From: Candidatus Poribacteria bacterium | Lineage (GTDB): Bacteria; Poribacteria; WGA-4E; WGA-3G | Assembly (NCBI GenBank): GCA_958295815.1 | Contig: OY282374.1 | Coordinates: 514,856-578,855, forward strand | DNA length: 64,000 nt | Reading direction: 5' to 3' | In this document: positions 5,875 through 61,458 of the stretch, one piece after another | Layout of the letters: each line of letters begins with the position of its first letter | Numbering within the stretch: the first letter of the stretch is position 1 | Translations under genes and position numbers: made by a program | Notes under the pieces: model-generated | What the model was told of the DNA's origin: nothing | Databases searched by the model: none | What the model saw: the letters and a program-made list of their open reading frames with translations, nothing else

Positions 5875-7293
5875 ATGTTGCTGACAATATCAACCACGTA
5901 TCCTCCTGCAACCGACCTCGGTTATTTGTTGCATAAACACCCATCACGAATTCAATCCTTTAAGCTCGCCTTTGGTCAAGCACACGTCTATTACCCAGAG
6001 GCACATGCTGAGAGGTGCACGGCAGCACTGCTTCTTGATGTTGATTCGGTTGGACTTACCCGCCGTCCGCACGGACAGTTCTCGGAAAATTTCGCACTGG
6101 CGCAGTACGTCAGTGATCGTCCTTACGTTGCTTCGTCGTTTTTGAGCGTCGCGATCGCGCGGGTGTTTAGCAGTGCGTTGTCGGGCAAGTGCAAAGAACA
6201 TCCAGACCTCGCTGAGACCGCTATTCCTTTACGTGCAAAATTATCCATCTTGCCATGTCGTGGAGGAGAGGAATTGTTGCGACGACTTTTCGAGCCGCTG
6301 GGTTATATAGTAGAGGCAGAACGACATGCGCTGGATGCTCAATTCTCGGATTGGGGAGAGAGCCGTTATTTTACAGTGACGCTCGAAAACACCTGTCGCT
6401 TGAGCGAACTCCTCACACATCTTTACATTCTGATGCCTGTACTTGACGACGAAAAACACTATTGGGTTGACGATGCCGAGATCGAAAAACTGTCAAGGCG
6501 TGGTAATGATTGGCTTGCTGCGCATCCAGAACAAGAATCTATTGTCCGTCGCTATTTGAAACATCAACAAGGTCTTACGCGAAAGGCACTTGCCCAATTG
6601 CGCGAAGAAGATGTTCAACAAACTGACGAGCCGATTCAGCAAGAAGCAGAAGCGCAGGTTGAAGAACGAATGGGTCTCAACGATGTCCGTTTGGCTGCGG
6701 TCACTGAAGTCCTCAAACAATGTGGCGCGAAACGTGTTCTTGATTTGGGGTGTGGTGAAGGGAAACTTCTCCGAAGGTTATTGGCTGAAGACCAGTTTGA
6801 AGAGATCGTTGGAATGGATGTTTCACATCGCGCACTAAAGATCGCGCGGGAACGACTTCGTCACGATAGGTTGCCAGAGAAACAGAAAAAACGACTTCGT
6901 CTGTTCCAAGGGTCGCTCGGATATCGAGATAAACGCTTGGTTGGATACGATGCAGCTGTGGTTGTAGAGGTAATCGAACACTTAGATTTGCCACGACTTT
7001 CGGCTTTTGAGCGGGTGCTTTTTGAATCTGCCTGCCCCCGAACCGTGCTGCTGACAACACCAAACATAGAATACAACGTGAAATTTGAGAACCTACAGGC
7101 TGGACGCTTCCGACATAAAGACCACCGTTTCGAGTGGACGCGGGACGAATTTCAGTCCTGGGCAACCAGTATTTCTAACCGCTTTGGTTATACCGTTATG
7201 TTTCATTCAATCGGACCAGAGCATGAAGACGTCGGATCACCGACACAGATGGCAGTTTTTGTCCGAGAAGGTCGGGAAGGCAAAATAACATGA
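5875..7293 (+). CDS. hen1: bacterial Hen1 3'-terminal RNA ribose 2'-O-methyltransferase
   Basis: bacterial Hen1 N-terminal domain (ATDLGYLLHKHP) plus C-terminal SAM methyltransferase (VLDLGCGEGKLL); 4-nt ATGA overlap with pnkp. Confidence 0.85.
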   Translation: MLLTISTTYPPATDLGYLLHKHPSRIQSFKLAFGQAHVYYPEAHAERCTAALLLDVDSVGLTRRPHGQFSENFALAQYVSDRPYVASSFLSVAIARVFSSALSGKCKEHPDLAETAIPLRAKLSILPCRGGEELLRRLFEPLGYIVEAERHALDAQFSDWGESRYFTVTLENTCRLSELLTHLYILMPVLDDEKHYWVDDAEIEKLSRRGNDWLAAHPEQESIVRRYLKHQQGLTRKALAQLREEDVQQTDEPIQQEAEAQVEERMGLNDVRLAAVTEVLKQCGAKRVLDLGCGEGKLLRRLLAEDQFEEIVGMDVSHRALKIARERLRHDRLPEKQKKRLRLFQGSLGYRDKRLVGYDAAVVVEVIEHLDLPRLSAFERVLFESACPRTVLLTTPNIEYNVKFENLQAGRFRHKDHRFEWTRDEFQSWATSISNRFGYTVMFHSIGPEHEDVGSPTQMAVFVREGREGKIT

Positions 7294-9854
7294 TTATGCA
7301 AATTCCTGAACCTTCACTTGTCCTCCTTATTGGACCTTCCGGTTCAGGCAAGTCCACCTTTGCACGTAAGCATTTTAAGCCGACTGAGATTCTTTCATCG
7401 GATTTCTGCCGGGGGCTTGTTTCGGACGATGAGACCGACCAAACGGTAACGAAAGATGCATTCGAAGTGCTGCGTTTCATCGCAGCGAAACGGCTCGCTG
7501 CTGGGAAACTAACGGTCGTTGATGCAACAAACGTTCAGGCGGACGCACGAAAACCTTTGCTTGCATTGGCACGCGAATATCATTACTTAACTGTTGCCAT
7601 TGTATTTGACATGCCTACAAAACTTTGTCAGGAAAGAAATGAGGCGCGGCCCGACCGCGATTTCAAATCGTATGTCATCCGCCAGCAGCGTCAGCAACTA
7701 CGCCGTTCACTGCGTGGACTCAAACGTGAAGGTTTTCGGAACTTCATCTATGTGATGTCCACATCGGAAGCCGTTGAATCTGCATGTGTTGAGCGACAAC
7801 CACTGTGGACGAATCGTAGAGACGAGCAAGGACCATTTGACATCATTGGTGATATTCACGGCTGTTTTGACGAACTTGTTGAATTGCTCAAAGAACTCGG
7901 TTATGGAATCTCAACGCAGCCGAGCGGTGAAATCGTTGTTGAGCCGCCGCAGGGCAGAAAGGCGGTTTTCGTCGGAGATTTTGTTGACCGGGGTCCAAAG
8001 GTTCCCGAAGTGTTACGCTTGGTCATGGGAATGCAAAAGACTGGTGCAGCTATCTGCGTGCCCGGAAATCATGACGTGAAACTCGTACGTGCGCTCCGCG
8101 GCAAAAATGTGAAGCAAACACACGGGTTAGCGGAATCGTTATCTCAATTAGAGAAAACACCAACCGAATTTAAGACGCAAATCGCAGAATTCCTCGATGG
8201 TTTAGTGAGCCACTACGTACTTGACGACGGAAAGTTGGTCGTCGCACACGCTGGAATGAAGGCGGAATTACAAGGTAGGGCATCGGGACGCGTCCGAGAA
8301 TTCGCAATGTATGGAGAAACCACCGGGGAAACCGATGAGTTCGGCTTACCAATTCGGGTCAATTGGGCTGACGAATATCGTGGTGCTGCGATGGTTGTCT
8401 ATGGGCACACACCAGTTGCTGAGCCGCAGTGGGTAAACCAGACAATCAACATTGATACTGGATGTGTTTTTGGTGGCAAATTGACGGCGTTGCGGTATCC
8501 CGAAAAAGAACTCGTGTCTGTTCCCGCACACCAGACCTATTATGAACCGACCAAGCCGCTTCTTGATGAAGTGAACGAACTGCCTTCAGTCAAAACGCAG
8601 GCGTATGATGATGTCTTGGATATTAATGATGTGATGGGAAAGCGCGTTATCAGCACAAGGTTACATCACAACATAACAATCCGCGAAGAGAATACGATAA
8701 CCGCGCTTGAGACGATGAGCCGTTTCGCTGTGAATCCAAAATGGCTTATATACCTTCCACCGACAATGTCCCCAACTGAAACGACAAATAGCCCCGGTTT
8801 GCTTGAACATCCAGCAGAAGGGTTCACTTATTATCGTAGGCAGGGTATATCCAATGTCATCTGGGAAGAAAAACACATGGGATCCCGCGCTGTTGTTGTC
8901 GTTTGTCGGGATCCGGAAACTGCAAAAAGGCGATTTGGTGTTATCGGGGACACCCTCGGCATCTGTTATACACGAACCGGCAGACGTTTCTTTGAGGATG
9001 CCGCAATTGAAACTGAACTGTTAAGACAGGTAAAAGAAGCAATAGACAATGCCGATTATTGGAAAATCTTCGATACAGATTGGATCTGTCTTGACTGCGA
9101 GTTAATGCCTTGGTCGGTTAAGGCTCAGGAGCTGTTACGGCAACAATACGCGCCAGTGGGCACATCAGCTCGTATCGCTTTGGGAGAAGCTGTTGTCTCC
9201 TTAGAGATTGCCGCTGAACGAGATATTGACGTGAGCCATGTATTGGATGACTATCGTCAACGCACCGAAGCAGTGGCGGAATACGTTAAGGCTTATCAGC
9301 AATACTGCTGGCAGGTACAATCTGTCGCAGACCTGAAACTGGCTCCGTTCCATCTCCTTGCGACGGAAGGTGCCGTGTATTTCGACAAAGACCATCAGTG
9401 GCACATGCAAATGCTTACGAAACTCTGTCAAAGTTCTGAGAATGACCTATTGTTTGCAACTTCCTGCGGGGTAGTTGATGTGACTGATGACGCAAGTCAG
9501 GCTGAGGCGATTCGACTGTGGGAAGAACTCACGGCGCAGGGAGGCGAAGGCACAGTCATCAAACCTCTGGATTTTGTCGTTCATGGCAAACGAGGATTGA
9601 TACAACCCGCTGTAAAATGTCGCGGTCGTGAGTATCTCCGGATAATCTATGGACCTGAGTACACCTTGCCCCAGAACTTAGAACGTCTACGTTCCCGTGG
9701 GCTCTCTCGCAAACGTGCCCTCGCGCTCCGGGAGTTTGCATTGGGCGTTGAGGCACTTGAGCGTTTCGTTCGCCGTGAACCCTTATCTCGTGTTCACGAA
9801 TGCGTTTTCGGAATTTTAGCACTCGAAAGTGAGTCGGTTGATCCAAGGCTCTGA
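7290..9854 (+). CDS. pnkp: polynucleotide kinase-phosphatase Pnkp (kinase, metallophosphoesterase and ligase-like domains)
   Basis: P-loop GPSGSGKST kinase, calcineurin-like GDIHGC...GDFVDRGP...GNHD phosphatase, long C-terminal adenylyltransferase-like domain. Confidence 0.85.
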   Translation: MIMQIPEPSLVLLIGPSGSGKSTFARKHFKPTEILSSDFCRGLVSDDETDQTVTKDAFEVLRFIAAKRLAAGKLTVVDATNVQADARKPLLALAREYHYLTVAIVFDMPTKLCQERNEARPDRDFKSYVIRQQRQQLRRSLRGLKREGFRNFIYVMSTSEAVESACVERQPLWTNRRDEQGPFDIIGDIHGCFDELVELLKELGYGISTQPSGEIVVEPPQGRKAVFVGDFVDRGPKVPEVLRLVMGMQKTGAAICVPGNHDVKLVRALRGKNVKQTHGLAESLSQLEKTPTEFKTQIAEFLDGLVSHYVLDDGKLVVAHAGMKAELQGRASGRVREFAMYGETTGETDEFGLPIRVNWADEYRGAAMVVYGHTPVAEPQWVNQTINIDTGCVFGGKLTALRYPEKELVSVPAHQTYYEPTKPLLDEVNELPSVKTQAYDDVLDINDVMGKRVISTRLHHNITIREENTITALETMSRFAVNPKWLIYLPPTMSPTETTNSPGLLEHPAEGFTYYRRQGISNVIWEEKHMGSRAVVVVCRDPETAKRRFGVIGDTLGICYTRTGRRFFEDAAIETELLRQVKEAIDNADYWKIFDTDWICLDCELMPWSVKAQELLRQQYAPVGTSARIALGEAVVSLEIAAERDIDVSHVLDDYRQRTEAVAEYVKAYQQYCWQVQSVADLKLAPFHLLATEGAVYFDKDHQWHMQMLTKLCQSSENDLLFATSCGVVDVTDDASQAEAIRLWEELTAQGGEGTVIKPLDFVVHGKRGLIQPAVKCRGREYLRIIYGPEYTLPQNLERLRSRGLSRKRALALREFALGVEALERFVRREPLSRVHECVFGILALESESVDPRL

Positions 9855-20097: not shown

Positions 20098-20712
20098 TCA
20101 AGTTTGACTTCCGAGTTTCGCTAAATGCAAAACGAGTGTCGTATTACCAATGGCGAGCACTGCGCCAACAACGGTTTGTAGAAGTGTATGCCGTTTTCGG
20201 TAAACCCGTGCCCAAGCAATCAATGGAATCAGCAAGAATAACCAACCAAATTGTGGATTAACAAGCATCACGAGTACGGTGACACATCCGGTGGCAACGC
20301 TACTGTGAAAACTAATTTTCCACATTAGGGTGATTGCGAAAAAAACGACACTGTTTGTGATATAAGCGACGCCTGCCCAGACAATTTCACGTGCCGCACC
20401 CAGTTCGTGCAATAGAAAAGTTCCCACAATCATACTGATGAGTGTACAGCATAAAGGTAGGAACCGTTCTTCTCTATTTTTCAGGTGTAGATCGCTTACT
20501 TTGGCGAACCGGACCATTACTGCTATCGACAGGGCGGGTAGGACGGTAACAAATAATACTACGATCGCCAACCACCGGAGGCTGTCTTGAGGTGCTGCAT
20601 GTTTTTCGACAACTCCGAAGGCTGTCGCAATGGGTACCAAAAAAGGGCTAAAAACGACAGAGATACACCATGCTAACCGTGCCGTAATTGTCGATAGGGT
20701 CCTGCGCGTCAT
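20098..20712 (-). CDS. PAP2-superfamily membrane phosphatase (phosphatidylglycerophosphatase-like)
   Basis: five to six TM helices, KISFHSS and RVYRKRH resembling PAP2 motifs SGH and SR...H. Confidence 0.45.
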   Translation of the reverse strand: MTRRTLSTITARLAWCISVVFSPFLVPIATAFGVVEKHAAPQDSLRWLAIVVLFVTVLPALSIAVMVRFAKVSDLHLKNREERFLPLCCTLISMIVGTFLLHELGAAREIVWAGVAYITNSVVFFAITLMWKISFHSSVATGCVTVLVMLVNPQFGWLFLLIPLIAWARVYRKRHTLLQTVVGAVLAIGNTTLVLHLAKLGSQT

Positions 20713-20719
20713 CAATTAA

Positions 20720-21730
20720 TTAGTTTGACGTTTCCAACGTTTTGAAGAAATTAACTAAGTCTGTGCCGTGTGTGCTGGCGTTGACTTTTTTATCGATTTC
20801 CAGAATTTTCCCCTCTTTATCGATAATAATAGATAATCGATCGATCCTTCCTTCAAGGACATTTGTCGCACCATATAGGAGTGAAAGATTGCGACTGGTG
20901 TCTACTAAAAGAGGGAAATTCAACTGATTTTCTTCGGAAAATCTCTGGTGTGAATCGGCGTCATTTACAGTAATTCCAAAAATCTGAGCATCGTATTCGG
21001 CAAAACTACTCGACTCATCACGGAGCGAGCAAACTTCTGCCGTTCAGCCAGTACCAAAGTCGCGCGGATAAAACGCGAGTACAACGTTCTTTTTTCCACG
21101 AAATTCACTTAATTGGTGCGTTTTACCACTGCCATCAACAGCAATAAAATCAGGGGCAGTTTGTCCGGCTTCTACCTTCGGTAGCACCTCTTTAAGCTGG
21201 ACAACCACATCTTCGCCGTGTGTTTTAGTGTTAACTTCTCTATCAATAGCACGGATGTATCCGGATTTGTCGATGATAAAAGTTGTCCGTTTTGATGCTT
21301 TGAAGTTTTCGATGATACCGCTGTACTGCGTACTCACCTCAAATTCGGTATCTGCCAATAGAGAAAAGCCGAATTTTTGCGCTGCTCTGAATTGCTTGTG
21401 TGATTCGACGGAGTCAACACTCACGCCGAAAAGCACACTATCAGTTGCTTCTATCTCGCTCAAACTATCCCGGAGCGAGTTGAGTTCGGCTGTTCAGCCA
21501 CCGGTAAAATCCTTCGGATAAAAGGCGAGAACGACATTCTTTTTACCTAAGTAATCGCTGAGATTCCGCTCAACACCTTCTTCATCTTTGAGTGTAAAAT
21601 CTGGGGCTGTCATCCCCGCTGTTAGCGTATCTGGCGTTGTCACTGCTTCCTCCCCTGAAGCTGCTGGAATTATAAGGGCTGTCATGAGGATAGCAGCCCA
21701 GACGCTCGCATTAAGCCGCGTTAGAAACAT
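20720..21730 (-). CDS. secreted tandem-domain BCP/PrxQ-type peroxiredoxin with two in-frame TGA (putative selenocysteine) codons at the peroxidatic positions
   Basis: three ORF-track pieces (21494-21832, 21044-21463, 20720-20923) share one frame; FYPKDFTGG-TGA-TAELNSLRD and FYPRDFGTG-TGA-TAEVCSLRD align to the Prx motif FYP.DFT.GC(T)xxxC.FRD; N-terminal signal peptide. Confidence 0.75.
20999..21041 (-). promoter_or_regulatory. bSECIS-like hairpin downstream of second in-frame UGA (GCUCGCUC-CGUGAU-GAGUCGAGU, outer GGCA/UGCC)
   Basis: stem-loop with apical GU; shares CUCGCUCCGNGAU with the first hairpin. Confidence 0.45.
21455..21479 (-). promoter_or_regulatory. bSECIS-like hairpin 14 nt downstream of first in-frame UGA (CUCGCUC-CGGGAUAGUUU-GAGCGAG)
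   Basis: perfect 7-bp stem with GU-containing loop read from the mRNA strand. Confidence 0.5.
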
Positions 21731-21883
21731 CACATTATGCCTCCACGAATTTTTTATCGCAAGTTTTCGGCTTACAGCTTCGCCGAAAAATATTATTATC
21801 GAAATTATACGCCAATTTCCTGTGAGTGTCAAGAAAACTCCGATCGGCGTAGCACTGTTTCGTTTTTTGATAGCCTTGTAGTC

Positions 21884-22750
21884 TTAGTTTGAAAGAATGT
21901 CATGTTCTTCAAGCCATGTCTTCAAAGGCACGTCGTCATCCTTAGGTGAAAAATGCCCATTTGCATTAGTTCCACCACCGAGAAGCTGCTGTCGAATCGG
22001 GTCATTTCGTTCAAACATCTCTTTCGGGATGGTCATGTTATCTTTGCTCCGTAGCCATCGATAGCCGTATCCATAAAAGAGTCCCTTGCGGGTGATGTCT
22101 GAATCATTTTCGCTGCGGGAATGCCATAGACGTCGGTCGAAGAAGACCGCGTCACCAGGTTTACAACAGACGGGTATTGCCCCCTTCGGAAGCGAACCGT
22201 CTGTCGGACGGTCTTCGAGTTTATTCCATAGGTGACTTCCTGGGATGATATAGAAGTTTCCGCGTCCAGGCTCTGAGCAGTCAGATAGCCAGTAGACGAC
22301 TTTGATAGAGAGACGGGGTCGAGGTGAGCTTTCCATCTCAATATTAACACGTCCACTATCCTGATGCCAGCCGAGCGGTGTCGGTTTACCACGCACTTCC
22401 TCTGGACGTGGTGGTGTAATGATGAAATGGCTGTGGTAGGAGTAGATATTCCACCCCAAAATGCCCCAGATCTTCGGAAACGTTTTATACCAGTCCAAAA
22501 TGTTCACGAAGACCTGATCTGTGCCGAGGAAGTTCGGATAGAAAAAATTGTTATGCGCAGCCAGTTGGTTTTTGGTATATGGGTCGTAACCGGCATCGAG
22601 GTGTTGTTGATAGATGTTGTCCACCCGCGTTTCGAGCCGTTCAACGAGATCTGGCGGGAGTGCATTTTCGATGATTAAATACCCATCTTCATTCATAGCA
22701 CTGCGTTGTTCATCTGTGAGCTGGTGTTGTAGATGTCTTTCGTCAAGCAT
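21884..22750 (-). CDS. phytanoyl-CoA dioxygenase (PhyH) family Fe(II)/2-oxoglutarate oxygenase
   Basis: WHQDSG...H.D double-stranded beta-helix facial triad; PhyH-like length. Confidence 0.75.
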   Translation of the reverse strand: MLDERHLQHQLTDEQRSAMNEDGYLIIENALPPDLVERLETRVDNIYQQHLDAGYDPYTKNQLAAHNNFFYPNFLGTDQVFVNILDWYKTFPKIWGILGWNIYSYHSHFIITPPRPEEVRGKPTPLGWHQDSGRVNIEMESSPRPRLSIKVVYWLSDCSEPGRGNFYIIPGSHLWNKLEDRPTDGSLPKGAIPVCCKPGDAVFFDRRLWHSRSENDSDITRKGLFYGYGYRWLRSKDNMTIPKEMFERNDPIRQQLLGGGTNANGHFSPKDDDVPLKTWLEEHDILSN

Positions 22751-24006: not shown

Positions 24007-24825
24007 ATGCCAGTTTTTGATGCAGAAGCCTTAGAATTTTGGGAAGAGAATGGTTACGTTGTTGTGCCAGAAGCCGTCCCTCTTGAGAACTGCCGCGCTG
24101 CGGAACAAGCCGTTTGGGATTTTCTTGAAATGGATCGTGACGATCCAGACAGTTGGTATCCTGACCCACCGCGTCGGAGTATCATGGTAGAGATTTATCA
24201 GCACCAAGCCTTGTGGGATAATCGCCAATACCCGCGTATACATCAGGCTTTCTCAGAAATTTGGGAAAACGAGAAACTTTGGGTTAGTTTTGATCGCGCA
24301 AGCATGAATCCACCTGAACGTTCGGATTGGAAATTCACCGGACCTTACTTGCATTGGGATATGTCGTTGGACGATATGCCGGTGCGTTTAAAGGTACAAG
24401 GTGTGCTGTATCTGGCAGATACACCCGGCAATCAGGGGGCATTCACCTGCATTCCAGGGTTCCATCGGAAATTGGAGTCATGGTTAGATGACCTGCCTGC
24501 CGATACCAATCCACGGGAAGTCGTGCGAGACTACCAAGCCGAAGCGGTTCCGGTTGCCGGGAAAGCCGGTGATCTTGTAATCTGGCACAGTGCATTGCCA
24601 CACGGTAGTAGCCCGAATTCTGCCGAGCGTCCGCGGATGGCGCAATACATAACGATGTCACCAGCACCAACGAACGGAAATCCTGAGTCCCGGATTACCG
24701 GATGGCGCGAACGATTAACAGGTCTCGGCAAAGAGGCGAAAGAGAAGGAACATTACCAGGGGAAGACAGCCGAGTTGACACCTTTAGGGGAAAGACTCCT
24801 TGGGCTTGAATCGTGGGATGTCTGA
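24007..24825 (+). CDS. phytanoyl-CoA dioxygenase (PhyH) family protein
   Basis: PhyH-like N-terminus and HWDMS...H.H.S core. Confidence 0.7.
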   Translation: MPVFDAEALEFWEENGYVVVPEAVPLENCRAAEQAVWDFLEMDRDDPDSWYPDPPRRSIMVEIYQHQALWDNRQYPRIHQAFSEIWENEKLWVSFDRASMNPPERSDWKFTGPYLHWDMSLDDMPVRLKVQGVLYLADTPGNQGAFTCIPGFHRKLESWLDDLPADTNPREVVRDYQAEAVPVAGKAGDLVIWHSALPHGSSPNSAERPRMAQYITMSPAPTNGNPESRITGWRERLTGLGKEAKEKEHYQGKTAELTPLGERLLGLESWDV

Positions 24826-24913
24826 TGCGTCTTTAGTAGTTAAGTTAAATAGATAGGGTGGGTGCTGTGCCCGCTCACTGGTGTCCAGCTGGTGCATGAA
24901 GGAGATTTGCATC

Positions 24914-26206
24914 ATGACAGATTTATTGGCAGCACGGGCACAGATGGCAATGTCTCTCGCGTTTCACATTATTTTTGCAGCAGTCGGTATCGCAATGCCG
25001 CTGCTAATGGTGATTGCGGAGGGATTGTGGCTTAAAACGCGAGAAGAGGTATACCTGACGCTGGCGAAGCAGTGGGCAAAAGGCACCGCTGTGATGTTCG
25101 CTGTTGGTGCCGTCTCTGGGACCGTCCTATCTTTTGAACTCGGCTTGTTGTGGCCCAATTTCATGGCTTACGCCGGTCCAATCATCGGAATGCCGTTTTC
25201 GCTGGAAGGGTTGGCGTTTTTCGTTGAAGCAATCTTTTTAGGGCTTTATCTCTACGGTTGGGATCGCATCCCAAAATATGCACACTGGTTCGCTGGTATG
25301 ATGGTGCTGCTCGGCGGTACGTTTTCGGGCATCTTCGTTGTTACCGCGAATGCTTGGATGAATACACCCACCGGCTTTTCGATTGTCAATGGTGAAGTGA
25401 CAGACATCGATCCGATTGCGGCGATGCTCAATCCCTCCTCGTTCAGCCAAGCACTCCACATGACCATTGCTGCTTTTCTCGCTGTCGGATTTGCAGTGGC
25501 TGGTATTCACGCCTATTTCCTCAGACGCGATCCAAATAACCTTTTCCATCGCCGAGCATTCGCTATTGCGTTAAGTGTCGGCGCGGTGTTCGCACTCCTC
25601 CAACCAATTTCGGGAGACATCAGTGCTAAGAAATTGGCTAAGTATCAACCCGTTAAGCTCGCCGCAATGGAGGCGCAATGGGAGACAGAGCGTGGCGCGC
25701 CCTTACGCATTGGTGGTATTCCTAACGAGGATACTGAAGAAACCCGATATGCCCTTGAGATTCCGAAGGCACTCAGTTTCCTCGCACATTCCGACTTCAA
25801 CGCTGAGATTATGGGACTCAAGGCGGTCCCACGCGAAAATCGTCCACCTGTGGCAATTGTGCATTTCGCATTTCAGATTATGGTGGCGTGTGGGATTGTG
25901 TTGATTACCGCTGGTGTGCTCGGCGGTTGGCTGGCGTGGAGACGAAAAGGTCTGCCAAGCCAACCTTGGTATCTTCGATTTGTCACGTTCTGCACACCAC
26001 TTGGATTTATTGCGATTGAAGCAGGCTGGACGGTCACGGAGGTCGGACGGCAACCGTGGGTTATCTATGGTCTGATGCGTACAGCAGATGCGGTAACGCC
26101 AATGCCAAACCTTGTTGTTCCGTTTGTCAGTTTTACGGTGCTTTACATTTTTCTCTCAATTATTGTTTTCATATTATTACGCCGTCTTATTTTTACCTCA
26201 GTTTAG
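24914..26206 (+). CDS. cydA: cytochrome bd ubiquinol oxidase subunit I
   Basis: MTDLLAARAQMAMSLAFHIIFAAVGI...Q-loop; RBS aggag upstream of 24914. Confidence 0.9.
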   Translation: MTDLLAARAQMAMSLAFHIIFAAVGIAMPLLMVIAEGLWLKTREEVYLTLAKQWAKGTAVMFAVGAVSGTVLSFELGLLWPNFMAYAGPIIGMPFSLEGLAFFVEAIFLGLYLYGWDRIPKYAHWFAGMMVLLGGTFSGIFVVTANAWMNTPTGFSIVNGEVTDIDPIAAMLNPSSFSQALHMTIAAFLAVGFAVAGIHAYFLRRDPNNLFHRRAFAIALSVGAVFALLQPISGDISAKKLAKYQPVKLAAMEAQWETERGAPLRIGGIPNEDTEETRYALEIPKALSFLAHSDFNAEIMGLKAVPRENRPPVAIVHFAFQIMVACGIVLITAGVLGGWLAWRRKGLPSQPWYLRFVTFCTPLGFIAIEAGWTVTEVGRQPWVIYGLMRTADAVTPMPNLVVPFVSFTVLYIFLSIIVFILLRRLIFTSV

Positions 26207-26273
26207 AGACGGATGGTTTGCTGTCAGAGGATCCAGAACTTGTGCTTGTAGCGAGACTTAGTGGAGGGATTTT

Positions 26274-27314
26274 GTGTTTACACTTGAATTCTGCGTCGCT
26301 GGCGTGATGCTTATCTCCCTCGTTATCTATATGTTGACAGGTGGTGCTGATTTTGGCGGTGGGATTTGGGATCTGTTTGCGACGGGTCGCCGTGCAAAAG
26401 CGCAGCGTTCACTTATCATGGAAGCCATCGCTCCGATCTGGGAAGCCAACCATGTCTGGTTAATTGTGATTGTTGTGCTGCTCTTCGTGGCATTTCCGGT
26501 CGCATTCGCGTCGATTAGTACGGCTTTACATATTCCATTGACATTGATGCTCGTGGGTATTGTGCTTCGCGGCTCAGCGTTTGTGTTTCGGACCTACGAT
26601 GTCCAATCGGATACGACACATCGCCGTTGGAGCCGGATGTTCGCCGTCGCAAGTGCTATTACACCTATCATGTTAGGAATTACGTTAGGGGCGGTTGCGT
26701 CCGGCGCGATTCACGTTGACGTGGAGAGTGGACAAGTGGACACCGACTTTATCTCAGCGTGGTTTGCCCCGTTTCCGTTTGCAATCGGTTTTTTCACCTT
26801 GACGCTCTGTGCCTTCCTTGCGGCGGTGTATCTCACGCTAGAGACTGAGGATTCGGGATTAAAAGAGGATTTTCGGCGACGCGCACTCATCGCGGCGGTG
26901 AGTGTTGGGGCAATGGCAGGACTGAGTTTTCTCTTATCTGCTGAAGGCGCGCCAATGATTCGGCAGGGACTCAGTGGTGCCCCTTGGTCGATCCCGTTTC
27001 ATATTTTGACGGGTGCGGTAGCTCTGTGGGCAATCTGGACGATTTGGAAACGTCAATTTCGCCTTGCGTGTATTCTTGTTCCGATACAGGTTACACTGAT
27101 TGTTTTCGGCTGGGGACTTGCACAGTATCCATATCTTGTTACACCCGACTTAACCTTTTCAAACGTAGCTGCACCGGATGCTGTGTTGCGTCCAATGTTG
27201 ATTATATTAGGTGTCGGTGGGGTTCTGTTGGCACCTGCATTCTGGTATCTTTACGCTGTATTTAAGGGCGCGTCTCGAAAAACGAATGATGCTCCAGAGC
27301 AACTTGATACTTGA
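26274..27314 (+). CDS. cydB: cytochrome bd ubiquinol oxidase subunit II
   Basis: GADFGGGIWDL and IAPIWEANHVWLIV CydB motifs. Confidence 0.9.
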   Translation: MFTLEFCVAGVMLISLVIYMLTGGADFGGGIWDLFATGRRAKAQRSLIMEAIAPIWEANHVWLIVIVVLLFVAFPVAFASISTALHIPLTLMLVGIVLRGSAFVFRTYDVQSDTTHRRWSRMFAVASAITPIMLGITLGAVASGAIHVDVESGQVDTDFISAWFAPFPFAIGFFTLTLCAFLAAVYLTLETEDSGLKEDFRRRALIAAVSVGAMAGLSFLLSAEGAPMIRQGLSGAPWSIPFHILTGAVALWAIWTIWKRQFRLACILVPIQVTLIVFGWGLAQYPYLVTPDLTFSNVAAPDAVLRPMLIILGVGGVLLAPAFWYLYAVFKGASRKTNDAPEQLDT

Positions 27315-59811: not shown

Positions 59812-60624
59812 CTATGAGGTCGGGTTCGTTGGTGTTCCAGCATCCATCACAAGAGGAAAATGGTCACCTACCAATTTATCACCATCGTTAACGGTAACAA
59901 AAGGTTTCATAACGTGGCTTCCGCTGGCATCGTATAGCGTTTCACCTGTCATATAATGCACTGCAATCGCACGCCGAGGACTACCACTGGTGTTGTCGTG
60001 CGAACCGTGCCATGTTAAGGAGTGATGGTAATGAACGTGTCCTTTCGGTACCGGGCAGAGTTCCACGGCTAATTCGTTATCTTCAAAGTGGTCGGGCATG
60101 GAATGGATGTCCTTGACGGAATGCAGAAACCCAATCTGATTGCCCCAATGATAAGAGCCAGGGACCATACGCATACATCCATTACTTTCATCAACATCGT
60201 CCAAGGCGACCCAAGCACTTACCTGACTCGTTTTTGGCGTAAGAATCGGCCAATACGGTGAATCCTGATGCCACATATTTACACCGCCCACTTTCGGTGG
60301 TTTATATTGGATCTGGTCGTGCCAGACGCGTAACTCTGTTGCTGATGTTAGTTGCCCGATTTCTTCTACGATAATTGGGTTATAAACGAGTCGATGGTAG
60401 GCTGGACTCGCCTCCCAAATGTTAACAACTTGCCAGACTGGACTCTCTTCTTTGCGACCGAGATTAGCGATGTGCACCGGCTGCGAAATATCCGCTTTCT
60501 CGTAATCGTCAATAACACGTGCCAATTCTGACCGTAGTTCCTCAACCTGATCATCGCTTAAAACACGGCTTCCAAGGAGAAAGCCTTTCTCACGAAATGT
60601 GTCAACTTGGGTTTGGTTGAGCAT
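59812..60624 (-). CDS. phytanoyl-CoA dioxygenase family protein (tandem paralog 1)
   Basis: WHQDSPYW...ALDD...HYHH...WHGSHDN; about 85% identical to the neighbour. Confidence 0.75.
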   Translation of the reverse strand: MLNQTQVDTFREKGFLLGSRVLSDDQVEELRSELARVIDDYEKADISQPVHIANLGRKEESPVWQVVNIWEASPAYHRLVYNPIIVEEIGQLTSATELRVWHDQIQYKPPKVGGVNMWHQDSPYWPILTPKTSQVSAWVALDDVDESNGCMRMVPGSYHWGNQIGFLHSVKDIHSMPDHFEDNELAVELCPVPKGHVHYHHSLTWHGSHDNTSGSPRRAIAVHYMTGETLYDASGSHVMKPFVTVNDGDKLVGDHFPLVMDAGTPTNPTS

Positions 60625-60645: not shown

Positions 60646-61458
60646 TTATATGTTAGCCTTCGTCGGCTTTCCCGCATCCATCACAAGCGGAAAATGGTGA
60701 CCTGCCAATTTATTACCACCATTAACGGTAACAAAACGTTTCATGATGTGATTTCCGCTTTCATCGTAGATGGTTTCGCTCGTCATATAATGCACCGCAA
60801 TTGCCCGACGCGGACTACCGCTGGCGTTGTCATGCGACCCGTGCCATGTTAAAGCGTGGTGATAGTGAACGTGTCCCTTCGGTACAGGACAGAGTTCTAC
60901 CTCCAACTCATTATCTTCAAAGCGATCTGGCAATGAATCAATGTCTGCGACCTCGCGCAAAAATGGCATCTGACTACCCCAGTGATAGGAACCGGGGACC
61001 ATACTCATACACCCGTTGCTTTCGTCAGCATCGTCCAACGCAACCCAAGCACTCACCTGACTCGTTTTCGGCATGAGAATTCCCCACAACGGCGAATCTT
61101 GATGCCAACGGTTGACACCACCAACTTTTGGCGGCTTGTATTGGATTTGGTCGTGCCAGACGCGCAACTCCGTCGCCGACATGAGTTGTCCAATCTCTTC
61201 CACAATGGTCGGGTTGTGAACGAGTCGGTGATAGGCAGCACTCGCCTCCCAAATGTTAACGATTTGCCAAACCGGGCTTTCTTCTTTACCGCCGAGGTTG
61301 GCAATACGAACGGGCTGCGGAACCTCAAGTTTTTCGTAGCTATCAATGACCCGCGCCAATTCAGCACGCAATTCATCAACCTGTTCATCGCTTAATACGC
61401 GGTTTCCGAGAAGAAAGCCTTTTTTACGAAATGTGTCAACCTGAGTTTGGTTGAGCAT
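60646..61458 (-). CDS. phytanoyl-CoA dioxygenase family protein (tandem paralog 2)
   Basis: same motifs; identical first 11 residues MLNQTQVDTFR. Confidence 0.75.
   Translation of the reverse strand: MLNQTQVDTFRKKGFLLGNRVLSDEQVDELRAELARVIDSYEKLEVPQPVRIANLGGKEESPVWQIVNIWEASAAYHRLVHNPTIVEEIGQLMSATELRVWHDQIQYKPPKVGGVNRWHQDSPLWGILMPKTSQVSAWVALDDADESNGCMSMVPGSYHWGSQMPFLREVADIDSLPDRFEDNELEVELCPVPKGHVHYHHALTWHGSHDNASGSPRRAIAVHYMTSETIYDESGNHIMKRFVTVNGGNKLAGHHFPLVMDAGKPTKANI

What the first reader, a model, noticed from the sequence alone, without database searches (positions are those of the whole stretch)
20999..21479. Two bSECIS-like hairpins with a shared CUCGCUCCGNGAU core downstream of the two UGAs
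After UGA 1, a perfect 7-bp stem CUCGCUC/GAGCGAG with an 11-nt loop begins 14 nt downstream. After UGA 2, GCUCGCUC/GAGUCGAGU forms with apical loop CGUGAU and outer GGCA/UGCC. Both keep a GU in the apical loop, as bacterial SECIS elements do. The shared sequence indicates that the duplication preserved both coding and RNA structure.
Basis: seen in the sequence. Interest (0 to 1): 0.6.

Follow-up and report, generated by a model that had tools for sequence, protein, structure and literature searches.

The report
Two SECIS hairpins in a double-selenocysteine peroxiredoxin
Both hairpins are real, and they are almost certainly the RNA signals that make the ribosome read two in-frame UGA stop codons as selenocysteine in a tandem two-domain peroxiredoxin gene kept across Poribacteria; this is a good new example of a well-known mechanism, not a new mechanism.

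Summary
A 336-aa gene (21730..20720) encodes a probable signal peptide and two BCP/PrxQ-type peroxiredoxin domains. Each domain has an in-frame UGA at the catalytic cysteine position.

Both UGAs are followed, 21 nt later, by a hairpin loop starting CGKGAU on a GCUCGCUC 5' arm.

- **UGA conservation.** About 100 related loci (Poribacteria genomes and metagenome contigs) keep TGA at both sites. One lineage is the exception: it lost site 1 to Ser, and its hairpin decayed.
- **Synonymous constraint.** The two post-UGA stretches are the two minima of synonymous variation in the whole gene (p about 1e-9).
- **Pairing.** The 8-bp bulged hairpin is 99.5% paired over 96 sequences, with compensatory changes at two pairs.
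- **Controls.** Cys homologues encode the same S-L-R-D peptide with other codons and have no such hairpin.

- The outer GGCA/UGCC stem is not conserved.
- The "GU" in loop 1 is not conserved; G followed by G or U at loop positions 2-3 is.
- Hairpin 1, with its 11-nt loop, is a derived form. The 3' GAGC slipped from the first to the second GCUC repeat.

Verdict: bacterial SECIS elements, a new member of a known kind. The Sec machinery and actual Sec insertion were not tested.

The parts
20720..21730 (-). Gene for a 336-aa tandem peroxiredoxin selenoprotein: probable signal peptide, then BCP/PrxQ domain 1 (FYPKDFTGG-U-TAE), then BCP/PrxQ domain 2 (FYPRDFGTG-U-TAEVC). ATG at 21730, stop TAA at 20722-20720.
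   Evidence: Translation. Pfam AhpC-TSA, two stretches, E 2.7e-68. NCBIfam Bcp NF006960, 176 bits against a cut-off of 140. PDB Bcp 3drn aligned over the active site. Codon-periodic variation before, between and after the UGAs. The ATG and GGAGG context is conserved in orthologues. The signal peptide is inferred from the sequence only.
21494..21496 (-). UGA 1, the Sec codon at the peroxidatic Cys position of domain 1.
   Evidence: TGA in the window and in all 80 Poribacteria loci and in divergent loci. It aligns with Cys in Cys homologues and with the active-site position of Bcp 3drn, which is Ser in that chain.
21455..21479 (-). SECIS 1, the derived form: 7-bp stem CUCGCUC (21479-21473) / GAGCGAG (21461-21455) with an 11-nt loop CGGGAUAGUUU (21472-21462). 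The loop starts 21 nt after the UGA.
   Evidence: Fold. 95% of cells paired over 78 sequences; the basal pair covaries (CG 44, GC 11, UG 3, UA 1). The core helix is in the MFE structure of 71 of 78 sequences, pair probability 0.89. Synonymous entropy is near zero for the codons UCG CUC ... UUG AGC.
21044..21046 (-). UGA 2, the Sec codon at the peroxidatic Cys position of domain 2.
   Evidence: TGA in the window and all 80 Poribacteria loci and in the metagenome relatives.
21008..21030 (-). SECIS 2, the conserved core: GCUCGCUC (21030-21023), 6-nt loop CGUGAU (21022-21017), GAGUCGAGU (21016-21008). It forms 4 bp, a one-base bulge, then 4 bp. RNAalifold bulges C21012 and pairs G21026 with U21013; the window's own MFE fold instead pairs G21026 with C21012 and leaves U21013 unpaired. 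The loop starts 21 nt after the UGA.
   Evidence: RNAalifold consensus. 99.5% of cells paired over 96 sequences, with compensatory changes at pairs 18-38 and 21-34, and 0 of 500 shuffles reaching the covariation score. The helix is in the MFE structure of 93 of 96 sequences. These are the lowest synonymous-entropy windows of the gene.
20998..21042 (-). Full hairpin 2 as it folds in this window, including the lower stem (with GGCA 21041-38 / UGCC 21002-20999). The lower stem is specific to this clade.
   Evidence: MFE -21.8 kcal/mol, z -3.5. The outer pairs are unpaired in 40-50 of 73 orthologues.
21804..21832 (-). Consensus sigma-70-type promoter TTGACA-17-TATAAT, about 75 nt upstream of the start codon.
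   Evidence: 12 of 12 match. The same pattern occurs upstream of the gene in 41 of 79 orthologous loci. This is a consensus match only.

Best explanation
The two hairpins are bacterial selenocysteine insertion sequences (bSECIS). They lie inside the coding region of one mRNA, one after each of two Sec-UGA codons of a tandem BCP/PrxQ-type peroxiredoxin that is probably exported.

**Inferred mechanism, from the established SelB pathway.**
- SelB.GTP.Sec-tRNASec binds the apical part of each hairpin. That part is the invariant G and the G/U at loop positions 2-3, on a GCUCGCUC 5' arm.
- When the ribosome places the UGA in its A site, the loop lies 21 nt downstream at the mRNA entrance, and Sec is delivered instead of release factor 2.
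- Each UGA needs its own local element. The domain duplication therefore carried the element with it, and both copies stayed under RNA-level selection on top of the S-L-R-D protein motif.

**History of the two forms.**
- The ancestral form is the 8-bp bulged hairpin with a 6-nt loop CGKGAU. It is seen at site 2 everywhere and at site 1 in divergent lineages.
- In the clade that includes this window, codon +10 of site 1 changed from GAG to AAU, AGU or AAA. This removed the top three pairs.
- The 3' GAGC then pairs with the second GCUC of the GCUC-GCUC repeat instead of the first. The result is the 7-bp stem with an 11-nt loop seen here. The 5' arm and the loop start stay at the same distance from the UGA.

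**Shown:** the anatomy, UGA conservation, nucleotide-level constraint, covariation and translation of all three segments. **Inferred:** SelB binding, Sec rather than another residue, export, and the direction of the register slip.
For: - **Anatomy.** UGAs at the Cp position of two AhpC/TSA domains.
- **UGA conservation.** TGA at both sites in the window plus 80 Poribacteria genomes at 62-88% aa identity, and in metagenome relatives 49-96% identical to the divergent relative P0014 used as query.
- **TGA is otherwise a stop.** It ends 19 of 50 long ORFs in the window.
- **All three segments are translated.** Position-3 entropy is 1.1-1.35, against 0.2-0.7 at positions 1 and 2.
- **Synonymous constraint.** Hairpin codons average 0.18 bits against 1.13 elsewhere, p 9.5e-10. 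Six-fold-degenerate codons average 0.24 against 1.37, p 5.6e-6. The lowest sliding windows in the gene are the two post-UGA stretches.
- **Structure at site 2.** 99.5% paired. Pair 18-38 changes CG to GC in 4 sequences. Pair 21-34 is GU 64, AU 27, UA 4. The covariation score is 0.154, against 0.105 for shuffles (0 of 500 as high) and at most 0.04 for slid controls.
- **Structure at site 1.** The basal pair covaries.
- **Prediction.** The core helices appear in the MFE structure of 71 of 78 and 93 of 96 sequences.
- **bSECIS consensus criteria.** Spacing, stem length, loop G and energy are met, as quoted from review PMC13188914.
- **Controls.** Cys homologue L107 encodes CTAEACSLRDE as TGT ACA GCA GAA GCG TGC AGT TTA AGG GAT GAA, with no such hairpin. 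L108 and L109 likewise use other codons.
- **Natural loss.** In the L083-L085 lineage, domain 1 carries Ser (TCA). Its SLRD codons have drifted (TCA CTT CGT GAT) and the 3' arm is gone. Domain 2 keeps both TGA and hairpin.
- Site-1 sequences with GAG at codon +10 have 6-8 ancestral pairs (11 of 12 have all 8) and 2-5 derived pairs. Those with AAU, AGU or AAA have 6-7 derived pairs in all but one (4).
- **Literature.** Sec-type hydrogenases are reported in Poribacteria (PMC13582414). SelA and SelB are enriched in sponge-symbiont bins (PMC5649159).
Against: - No selA, selB, selD or tRNA-Sec gene lies in the 64-kb window. I could not search the rest of the genome, so the Sec machinery in this organism rests on literature only.
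- Hairpin 1 is no more stable than shuffles in a 61-nt context. Its 11-nt loop is outside the 3-9 nt range of the consensus model, unless two G.U pairs are counted.
- Mean z-scores across orthologues are modest, about -1 to -2.
- The stems are almost invariant. Covariation therefore rests on a few pairs and probably a few independent events.
- The Cys-homologue control has only three sequences, from genomes of different base composition.
- There is no experimental evidence of SelB binding or Sec insertion.
Confidence: 0.86

Rival explanations
1. The hairpins are by-products of a conserved peptide motif (C/N-S-L-R-D-E/S) inherited through the domain duplication. On this view they have no RNA function, and the UGAs are decoded or tolerated by some other means.
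For: The shared core is exactly the codons for S-L-R-D, a motif also present in Cys-type BCPs. Within the window the shared run is no longer than one in the FYP motif. Hairpin 1 is not more stable than shuffles in a wide context.
Against: The constraint lies at synonymous positions. Cys homologues encode the same peptide with other codons and do not fold this way. Compensatory changes keep pairing. The element decays where the UGA was lost.
Confidence: 0.03
2. The UGAs are recoded, but not to selenocysteine. The alternatives are Cys through a SECIS-dependent tRNA of the SelC*/tRNA-ReC type, or Trp/Gly under an alternative genetic code. The second is how public gene callers have 'read' this gene.
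For: The public protein collection holds full-length versions with W at both positions. SECIS-dependent UGA-to-Cys tRNAs are described in some bacteria, as mentioned in PMC13582414. The hairpins would look the same under that scenario.
Against: TGA ends 19 of 50 long ORFs in the window, so there is no genome-wide reassignment. Trp or Gly at the peroxidatic position would inactivate both domains. The W versions come from short contigs of 0.9-4 kb called with an alternative code. tRNA-ReC is not reported for Poribacteria in what I read. If Cys were the product, TGC or TGT would be expected to appear among about 100 lineages, and it never does.
Confidence: 0.04
3. Only the 6-nt-loop hairpin (site 2 here) is a working SECIS. 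In this clade the 11-nt-loop hairpin drawn at site 1 would not be the form SelB binds. UGA 1 would then be served by another conformer, for example the 5' arm and loop start closed by G.U pairs, or decoded inefficiently.
For: The loop length is outside the 3-9 nt consensus. The energy is weak. The MFE structure closes the loop with two G.U pairs into a 5-nt loop GAUAG in the window. These pairs are not available in CGU variants.
Against: The 3' arm UUGAGCGA is nearly invariant at synonymous sites (UUG 70 of 71, AGC 71 of 71). The basal pair covaries. UGA 1 is kept in every member of the clade.
Confidence: 0.06
4. The gene is a decaying pseudogene, or it is meant to terminate at the UGAs and yield truncated products.
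For: Standard gene finding splits it into three ORFs.
Against: The same two TGAs and an intact frame persist in about 100 lineages, with position-3-dominated variation in all three segments. Termination at UGA 1 would stop just before the catalytic residue.
Confidence: 0.01

Closest known systems
Bacterial SECIS elements (bSECIS), e.g. E. coli fdhF/fdnG and the consensus model of Zhang & Gladyshev 2005 as summarised in PMC13188914
   Same: A hairpin inside the coding sequence immediately after a Sec-UGA. The UGA-to-loop distance is 21 nt (allowed range 16-37). The upper stem is 7-8 bp. G followed by G or U sits at loop positions 2-3. MFE is at or below -7.5 kcal/mol. There is one element per UGA.
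   Different: The sequence is unrelated to the E. coli elements. The bulge is on the 3' side. Element 1 has an 11-nt loop, outside the model's 3-9 nt range. Both elements share a GCUC-GCUC repeated 5' arm that allows two pairing registers.
Peroxiredoxin (Prx) selenoprotein family, PF00578 with TxxU motif (Sec at the peroxidatic position), abundant in marine metagenomes (PMC2398784, PMC13188914)
   Same: An AhpC/TSA fold with Sec replacing the peroxidatic Cys. Domain 1 has the PxxxTxxU motif. Cys-containing homologues exist.
   Different: Two Prx domains and two Sec residues in one chain, where the review's table gives one Sec for Prx. The protein is of the BCP/PrxQ subtype with a U-x4-C arrangement in domain 2. 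Domain 2 lacks the conserved Thr in most orthologues (FGRGU). A probable signal peptide is present.
PrxU, the Sec-containing thioredoxin-dependent peroxiredoxin (NCBIfam NF040737)
   Same: A selenocysteine peroxiredoxin.
   Different: It scores 110 bits against a cut-off of 270, so this protein is not a member. It belongs instead to the Bcp equivalog NF006960.
Tandem Cys-type BCP proteins (e.g. P0021, 375 aa, 32% identity)
   Same: The same two-domain BCP-BCP architecture behind an N-terminal hydrophobic leader.
   Different: Cys (CTKQAC, CTRQAC) at both active sites. There is no UGA, so no SECIS is expected; its DNA was not examined.

Membership tests
bSECIS (bacterial selenocysteine insertion sequence) | Lies in the coding region directly downstream of an in-frame UGA that aligns with Cys in homologues | tested here: met
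   Both UGAs sit at the peroxidatic Cys position. The hairpins start 13-14 nt after them.
bSECIS (bacterial selenocysteine insertion sequence) | 16-37 nt between the UGA and the apical loop | tested here: met
   21 nt at both sites; the loop starts at alignment column 25.
bSECIS (bacterial selenocysteine insertion sequence) | Upper stem of 4-16 bp and MFE at or below -7.5 kcal/mol | tested here: met
   Site 1: 7 bp, -10.6 to -11.5 kcal/mol. Site 2: 8 conserved bp (18 in the window), -20 to -21.8 kcal/mol. Orthologue mean MFE is -9.6 to -10.2 for the 37-nt core.
bSECIS (bacterial selenocysteine insertion sequence) | Apical loop of 3-9 nt | tested here: inconclusive
   Site 2 has 6 nt, which meets the criterion. 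Site 1 has 11 nt as drawn, which does not. It meets the criterion only if the two G.U pairs of the MFE structure are counted, giving a 5-nt loop.
bSECIS (bacterial selenocysteine insertion sequence) | G in one of the first two loop positions, usually followed by G or U | tested here: met
   Loops start CGG or CGU. G at column 26 is invariant in all three alignments, and column 27 is G or U.
bSECIS (bacterial selenocysteine insertion sequence) | UGA and element conserved together in orthologues; element lost when Sec is lost | tested here: met
   Searches show joint conservation. The Ser variant L083 has a decayed element. Cys homologues lack it.
bSECIS (bacterial selenocysteine insertion sequence) | Binds SelB and directs Sec insertion; the genome encodes SelA, SelB, SelC and SelD | not testable with these tools
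   None of these genes is in the window. Only literature is available: Sec-type hydrogenases in Poribacteria and SelA/SelB in sponge-symbiont bins.
Prx selenoprotein family (PF00578, PxxxTxxU) | AhpC/TSA domain with Sec at the peroxidatic position in a PxxxTxxU motif | tested here: met
   Domain 1 reads P-KDF-T-GG-U. Domain 2 of this window reads P-RDF-G-T-G-U, with the Thr displaced. Most orthologues have FGRGU with no Thr. Deep clades have FTGGU or MTPGU.
PrxU (NCBIfam NF040737) | Score at or above the curated cut-off of 270 bits | tested here: not met
   110.4 bits.
Bcp / thioredoxin-dependent thiol peroxidase (NCBIfam NF006960) | Score at or above the curated cut-off of 140 bits | tested here: met
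   176.2 bits over two stretches, with Cys substituted for Sec in the query.

The most novel reading that the evidence does not exclude
Element 1 of this clade would be a working bSECIS with an 11-nt loop, outside the current consensus. It would have been created by a register slip of the 3' GAGC along a GCUC-GCUC repeated 5' arm, after an amino-acid change destroyed the original top of the hairpin. If so, the Poribacteria SelB reads mainly the 5' arm plus the CGKGAU loop start at a fixed distance from the UGA. It would also show how a coding SECIS can survive protein evolution. Separately, the gene would be the first described tandem peroxiredoxin with two Sec residues that is fixed across a phylum.
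Probability: 0.35. Interest if true: 0.5.

Novelty: new member of a known kind. Interest (0 to 1): 0.38.

Why it matters
- **Annotation.** The gene is mis-annotated in public data. It is either split into three ORFs or "read through" with Trp at both catalytic positions. Recognising the two SECIS elements restores a conserved peroxiredoxin, probably exported, with two selenocysteines, in sponge-associated Poribacteria.
- **A natural series for studying SelB recognition.** It supplies about 170 aligned variants in two structural forms, one lineage with Sec lost, and Cys homologues. This shows which SECIS features are under selection when the element must also encode a protein motif. It could guide SECIS prediction models, whose loop limit of 3-9 nt would miss element 1.
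- **Limit.** It does not change the understanding of the Sec pathway.

Tried and rejected
- **Rfam.** No family matches at gathering thresholds over the whole window. A permissive scan of 20900-21600 gave only chance hits: ES205 at E 1.7 and SNORD74 at E 5.6. I recalled no Rfam family for bacterial SECIS elements, so this says little.
- **tRNA-Sec.** ARAGORN finds only tRNA-Gln in the window.
- **Sec machinery in the window.** Pfam scans of 55 of the 57 selected ORFs, including all long ones, found none. The other two, ruvA and yebC, were named only from their translated sequences.
- **Other selenoprotein genes in the window.** A scan for TGA codons flanked by open frames gave 32 candidates. 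Only the two Prx sites look real; the rest are off-frame shadows or ordinary gene ends.
- **Other copies of the loop motif.** The motif CTCCGKGAYG is not enriched: 9 matches against 10.9 expected.
- **Outer stem GGCA/UGCC.** Tested and rejected as a conserved feature.
- **Window-only argument for RNA-level retention.** Rejected, because the shared run is no longer than the one in the FYP motif.
- **Covariance model.** Not built. The alignment columns are dominated by coding signal, so a model would only find the same gene again.
- **Metagenome scan.** One of its two peptide patterns contained the artefactual W, so it returned only 21 loci.
- **Literature.** Searches for a tandem or double-Sec BCP found nothing specific. 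That is not proof of absence.
- **Regex artefacts.** A spurious match in L080 and an apparently missing site 2 there were checked. Site 2 is present as FYPRNFTGG-TGA.
Full report
**What is at the locus.** The feature lies on the minus strand.
- A gene runs from ATG 21730 to TAA 20722-20720, behind a GGAGG ribosome-binding site.
- It encodes 336 residues: a hydrophobic N-terminal leader (a probable signal peptide, inferred from sequence only) and two AhpC/TSA peroxiredoxin domains (Pfam, two stretches, E 2.7e-68).
- NCBIfam places it with Bcp-type thiol peroxidases (NF006960, 176 bits against a cut-off of 140). It does not belong with the known Sec-peroxiredoxin PrxU (110 bits against 270).
- Each domain has an in-frame TGA exactly where BCPs carry the peroxidatic cysteine: FYPKDFTGG-U-TAELNSLRD (UGA at 21496-21494) and FYPRDFGTG-U-TAEVCSLRD (UGA at 21046-21044).
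- TGA is an ordinary stop elsewhere, ending 19 of 50 long ORFs in the window.

**The observation.** All described elements are present at the stated coordinates.
- *Hairpin 1:* 14-nt spacer, CUCGCUC (21479-21473), 11-nt loop, GAGCGAG (21461-21455).
- *Hairpin 2:* GCUCGCUC (21030-21023), loop CGUGAU, GAGUCGAGU (21016-21008), plus a lower stem that includes GGCA/UGCC.
- *Energetics:* hairpin 2 is well beyond shuffled controls (-21.8 kcal/mol, z -3.5, 0 of 200). Hairpin 1 is not in a 61-nt context (z -0.14) and is borderline in 37 nt (z -2.15).
- *Shared core:* it is the codons UCG CUC CGN GAU (Ser-Leu-Arg-Asp). Inside this one window it is no more striking than the shared FYP codons.
- The window alone therefore does not settle the question.

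**Related sequences.**
- A scan of one genome per species returned 80 loci, all Candidatus Poribacteria, with the full two-domain gene at 62-88% identity.
- Every one has TGA at both positions. L080 site 2 was missed by my first pattern but is FYPRNFTGG-TGA.
- The protein collection holds full-length versions with W at both positions. These are alternative-code gene calls on short contigs, an annotation artefact.
- Divergent relatives recovered from metagenomes (L081-L103) also keep TGA.
- One lineage (L083-L085) is the exception. Its domain 1 has Ser and a degenerate active site, while its domain 2 still has TGA.
- Variation is concentrated at codon position 3 before, between and after the UGAs, so all three segments are translated in this frame.

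**Nucleotide-level constraint.**
- Over 71 distinct sequences, codons +5 to +15 after each UGA have mean synonymous entropy 0.18 bits. The other conserved codons average 1.13 (Mann-Whitney p 9.5e-10).
- Restricted to six-fold-degenerate codons, the figures are 0.24 against 1.37 (p 5.6e-6).
- The lowest 9-codon windows in the whole gene are exactly the two post-UGA stretches.
- For example, Ser +6 is UCG in 69 of 71, Leu +7 is CUC in 71 of 71, Leu +11 is UUG in 70 of 71, and Ser +12 is AGC in 71 of 71. Neighbouring Thr, Ala, Leu and Val codons vary freely.
- Three Cys-type homologues with the same peptide encode it differently and do not form the hairpin. The closest is CTAEACSLRDE, encoded as AGT TTA AGG for S-L-R.
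- In the Ser lineage the former site-1 element has drifted: CTC has become CTT and the 3' arm is lost.

**Structure at site 2.**
- RNAalifold gives an 8-bp helix: columns 17-20 with 36-39, and columns 21-24 with 31-34. It has a bulged base at column 35 and a 6-nt loop CGKGAU.
- I pooled all site-2 sequences with the site-1 sequences of divergent clades, which fold the same way. That gave 96 sequences.
- 99.5% of cells are standard pairs.
- Pair 18-38 changes CG to GC in four sequences. Pair 21-34 is GU 64, AU 27, UA 4.
- The covariation score is 0.154, against 0.105 for column shuffles (0 of 500 as high) and at most 0.04 for slid partners.
- These counts probably reflect only a few independent events.
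- The lower stem seen in this window is not conserved. Pairs 5-49, 6-48, 9-45 and 10-44 are unpaired in 40-50 of 73 sequences.

**Structure at site 1.**
- The 7-bp stem is 95% paired over 78 sequences.
- Its basal pair covaries: CG 44, GC 11, UG 3, UA 1.
- Across orthologues the core helices appear in the MFE structure in 71 of 78 (site 1) and 93 of 96 (site 2 type), with pair probabilities near 0.9. Mean z-scores are only about -1 to -2.

**Two forms of the element.**
- The 5' arm is a repeat, GCUC-GCUC.
- In the 6-nt-loop form, GAG(U) pairs with the second (G)CUC and the downstream GAGC or GAGU pairs with the first GCUC. This form is found at site 2 everywhere and at site 1 in the divergent lineages.
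- In the clade containing this window, codon +10 of site 1 is AAU, AGU or AAA instead of GAG, so the top three pairs cannot form.
- There the downstream GAGC pairs with the second GCUC and is extended by GA(G). This gives the 7-bp stem with an 11-nt loop.
- Counting pairs supports this. Sequences with GAG have 6-8 ancestral pairs (11 of 12 have all 8) and 2-5 derived pairs. Sequences with AAU, AGU or AAA have 6-7 derived pairs in all but one, which has 4.
- The 5' arm and the loop start (C-G-G/U-G-A-Y) stay 21 nt from the UGA in both forms.
- That the 6-nt form is ancestral is inferred by parsimony. No tree was built.

**Comparison with what is known.** The consensus bSECIS model is quoted in the 2026 review PMC13188914. 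It asks for a 3-9 nt loop, a 4-16 bp stem, G in the first two loop positions (usually G then G or U), 16-37 nt from UGA to loop, and MFE at or below -7.5 kcal/mol.
- Element 2 meets all of these.
- Element 1 meets all except loop length. It meets that too only if two G.U pairs are counted.
- Peroxiredoxin (PF00578, TxxU) is a long-known and abundant marine selenoprotein family (PMC2398784). The review lists it with one Sec.
- I found no report of a tandem BCP with two Sec residues in the searchable library. That is weak evidence of novelty.
- A tandem Cys-type BCP exists at 32% identity (P0021).
- Rfam gives no match.

**What remains untested.**
- No Sec machinery gene or tRNA-Sec lies in the window, and I could not search the rest of the genome.
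- Literature reports Sec-type hydrogenases in Poribacteria. It also reports SelA and SelB co-occurring in most sponge-symbiont bins.
- SelB binding, Sec rather than Cys at the UGAs, and export are all inferences.

**Verdict.** These are two bacterial SECIS elements serving two Sec codons of one tandem peroxiredoxin gene.

Three corrections apply:
- the outer stem is not conserved;
- the "GU" of loop 1 is not the conserved feature;
- hairpin 1 is a derived, register-shifted version of the hairpin-2 type.

It is a new, well-documented member of a known kind and of moderate interest.

Noticed in passing
window 20098-20715 (-): A 205-aa membrane protein with a weak PAP2 match (22 bits, below the 27-bit cut-off) starts 4 nt after the peroxiredoxin stop. 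A homologue follows on the same strand in all 75 of the Poribacteria loci L001-L080 in which it was found. This suggests a conserved two-gene unit of unknown joint function.
   Followed up: partly
window 21804-21832 (-): A perfect sigma-70 consensus promoter, TTGACA-17-TATAAT, lies upstream of the gene. The same pattern occurs in 41 of 79 orthologous loci.
   Followed up: partly
window 21764-21789 (-): An inverted repeat, UUUUCGGC...GCCGAAAA, sits in the 5' untranslated region between promoter and start codon. It was found in only 4 of 79 orthologous loci, so it is probably not a conserved element.
   Followed up: partly
window 21047-21073 (-); loci L001-L103: The domain 2 active site lacks the conserved Thr of the PxxxTxxU peroxiredoxin motif. 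It reads FGTGU here and FGRGU in most orthologues, while divergent clades keep FTGGU or MTPGU. Domain 2 keeps a U-x4-C pair; domain 1 has that Cys only in some clades.
   Followed up: no
L083:5001-5981, L084, L085: In this variant lineage domain 1 has lost Sec (Ser, TCA), has a degenerate active site (AFCPTELLVGST), and its SECIS has decayed. Domain 2 keeps both TGA and hairpin. The genomic neighbours also differ (radical SAM/SPASM, GDSL lipase).
   Followed up: partly
proteins P0001-P0017 (public protein collection): Public gene calls 'read through' this gene with Trp at both Sec positions. These are alternative-code calls on short contigs, an annotation artefact that hides a selenoprotein.
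   Followed up: yes
window 5875-9851 (+): A bacterial Hen1-Pnkp RNA repair cassette: Hen1_L plus methyltransferase, followed by kinase, phosphatase and ligase domains of PNKP.
   Followed up: no
window 21884-22750 (-), 24007-24825 (+), 59815-60624 (-), 60649-61458 (-): Four PhyH (phytanoyl-CoA dioxygenase) paralogues, interspersed with three GFO/IDH/MocA oxidoreductases. There are also two 3-keto-disaccharide-hydrolase-like genes, two Laminin_G_3 genes and an FGE-sulfatase gene. This gene content is typical of sponge-associated Poribacteria.
   Followed up: no
window 24881-27311 (+): Cytochrome bd oxidase subunits I and II lie about 3 kb from the peroxiredoxin gene.
   Followed up: no
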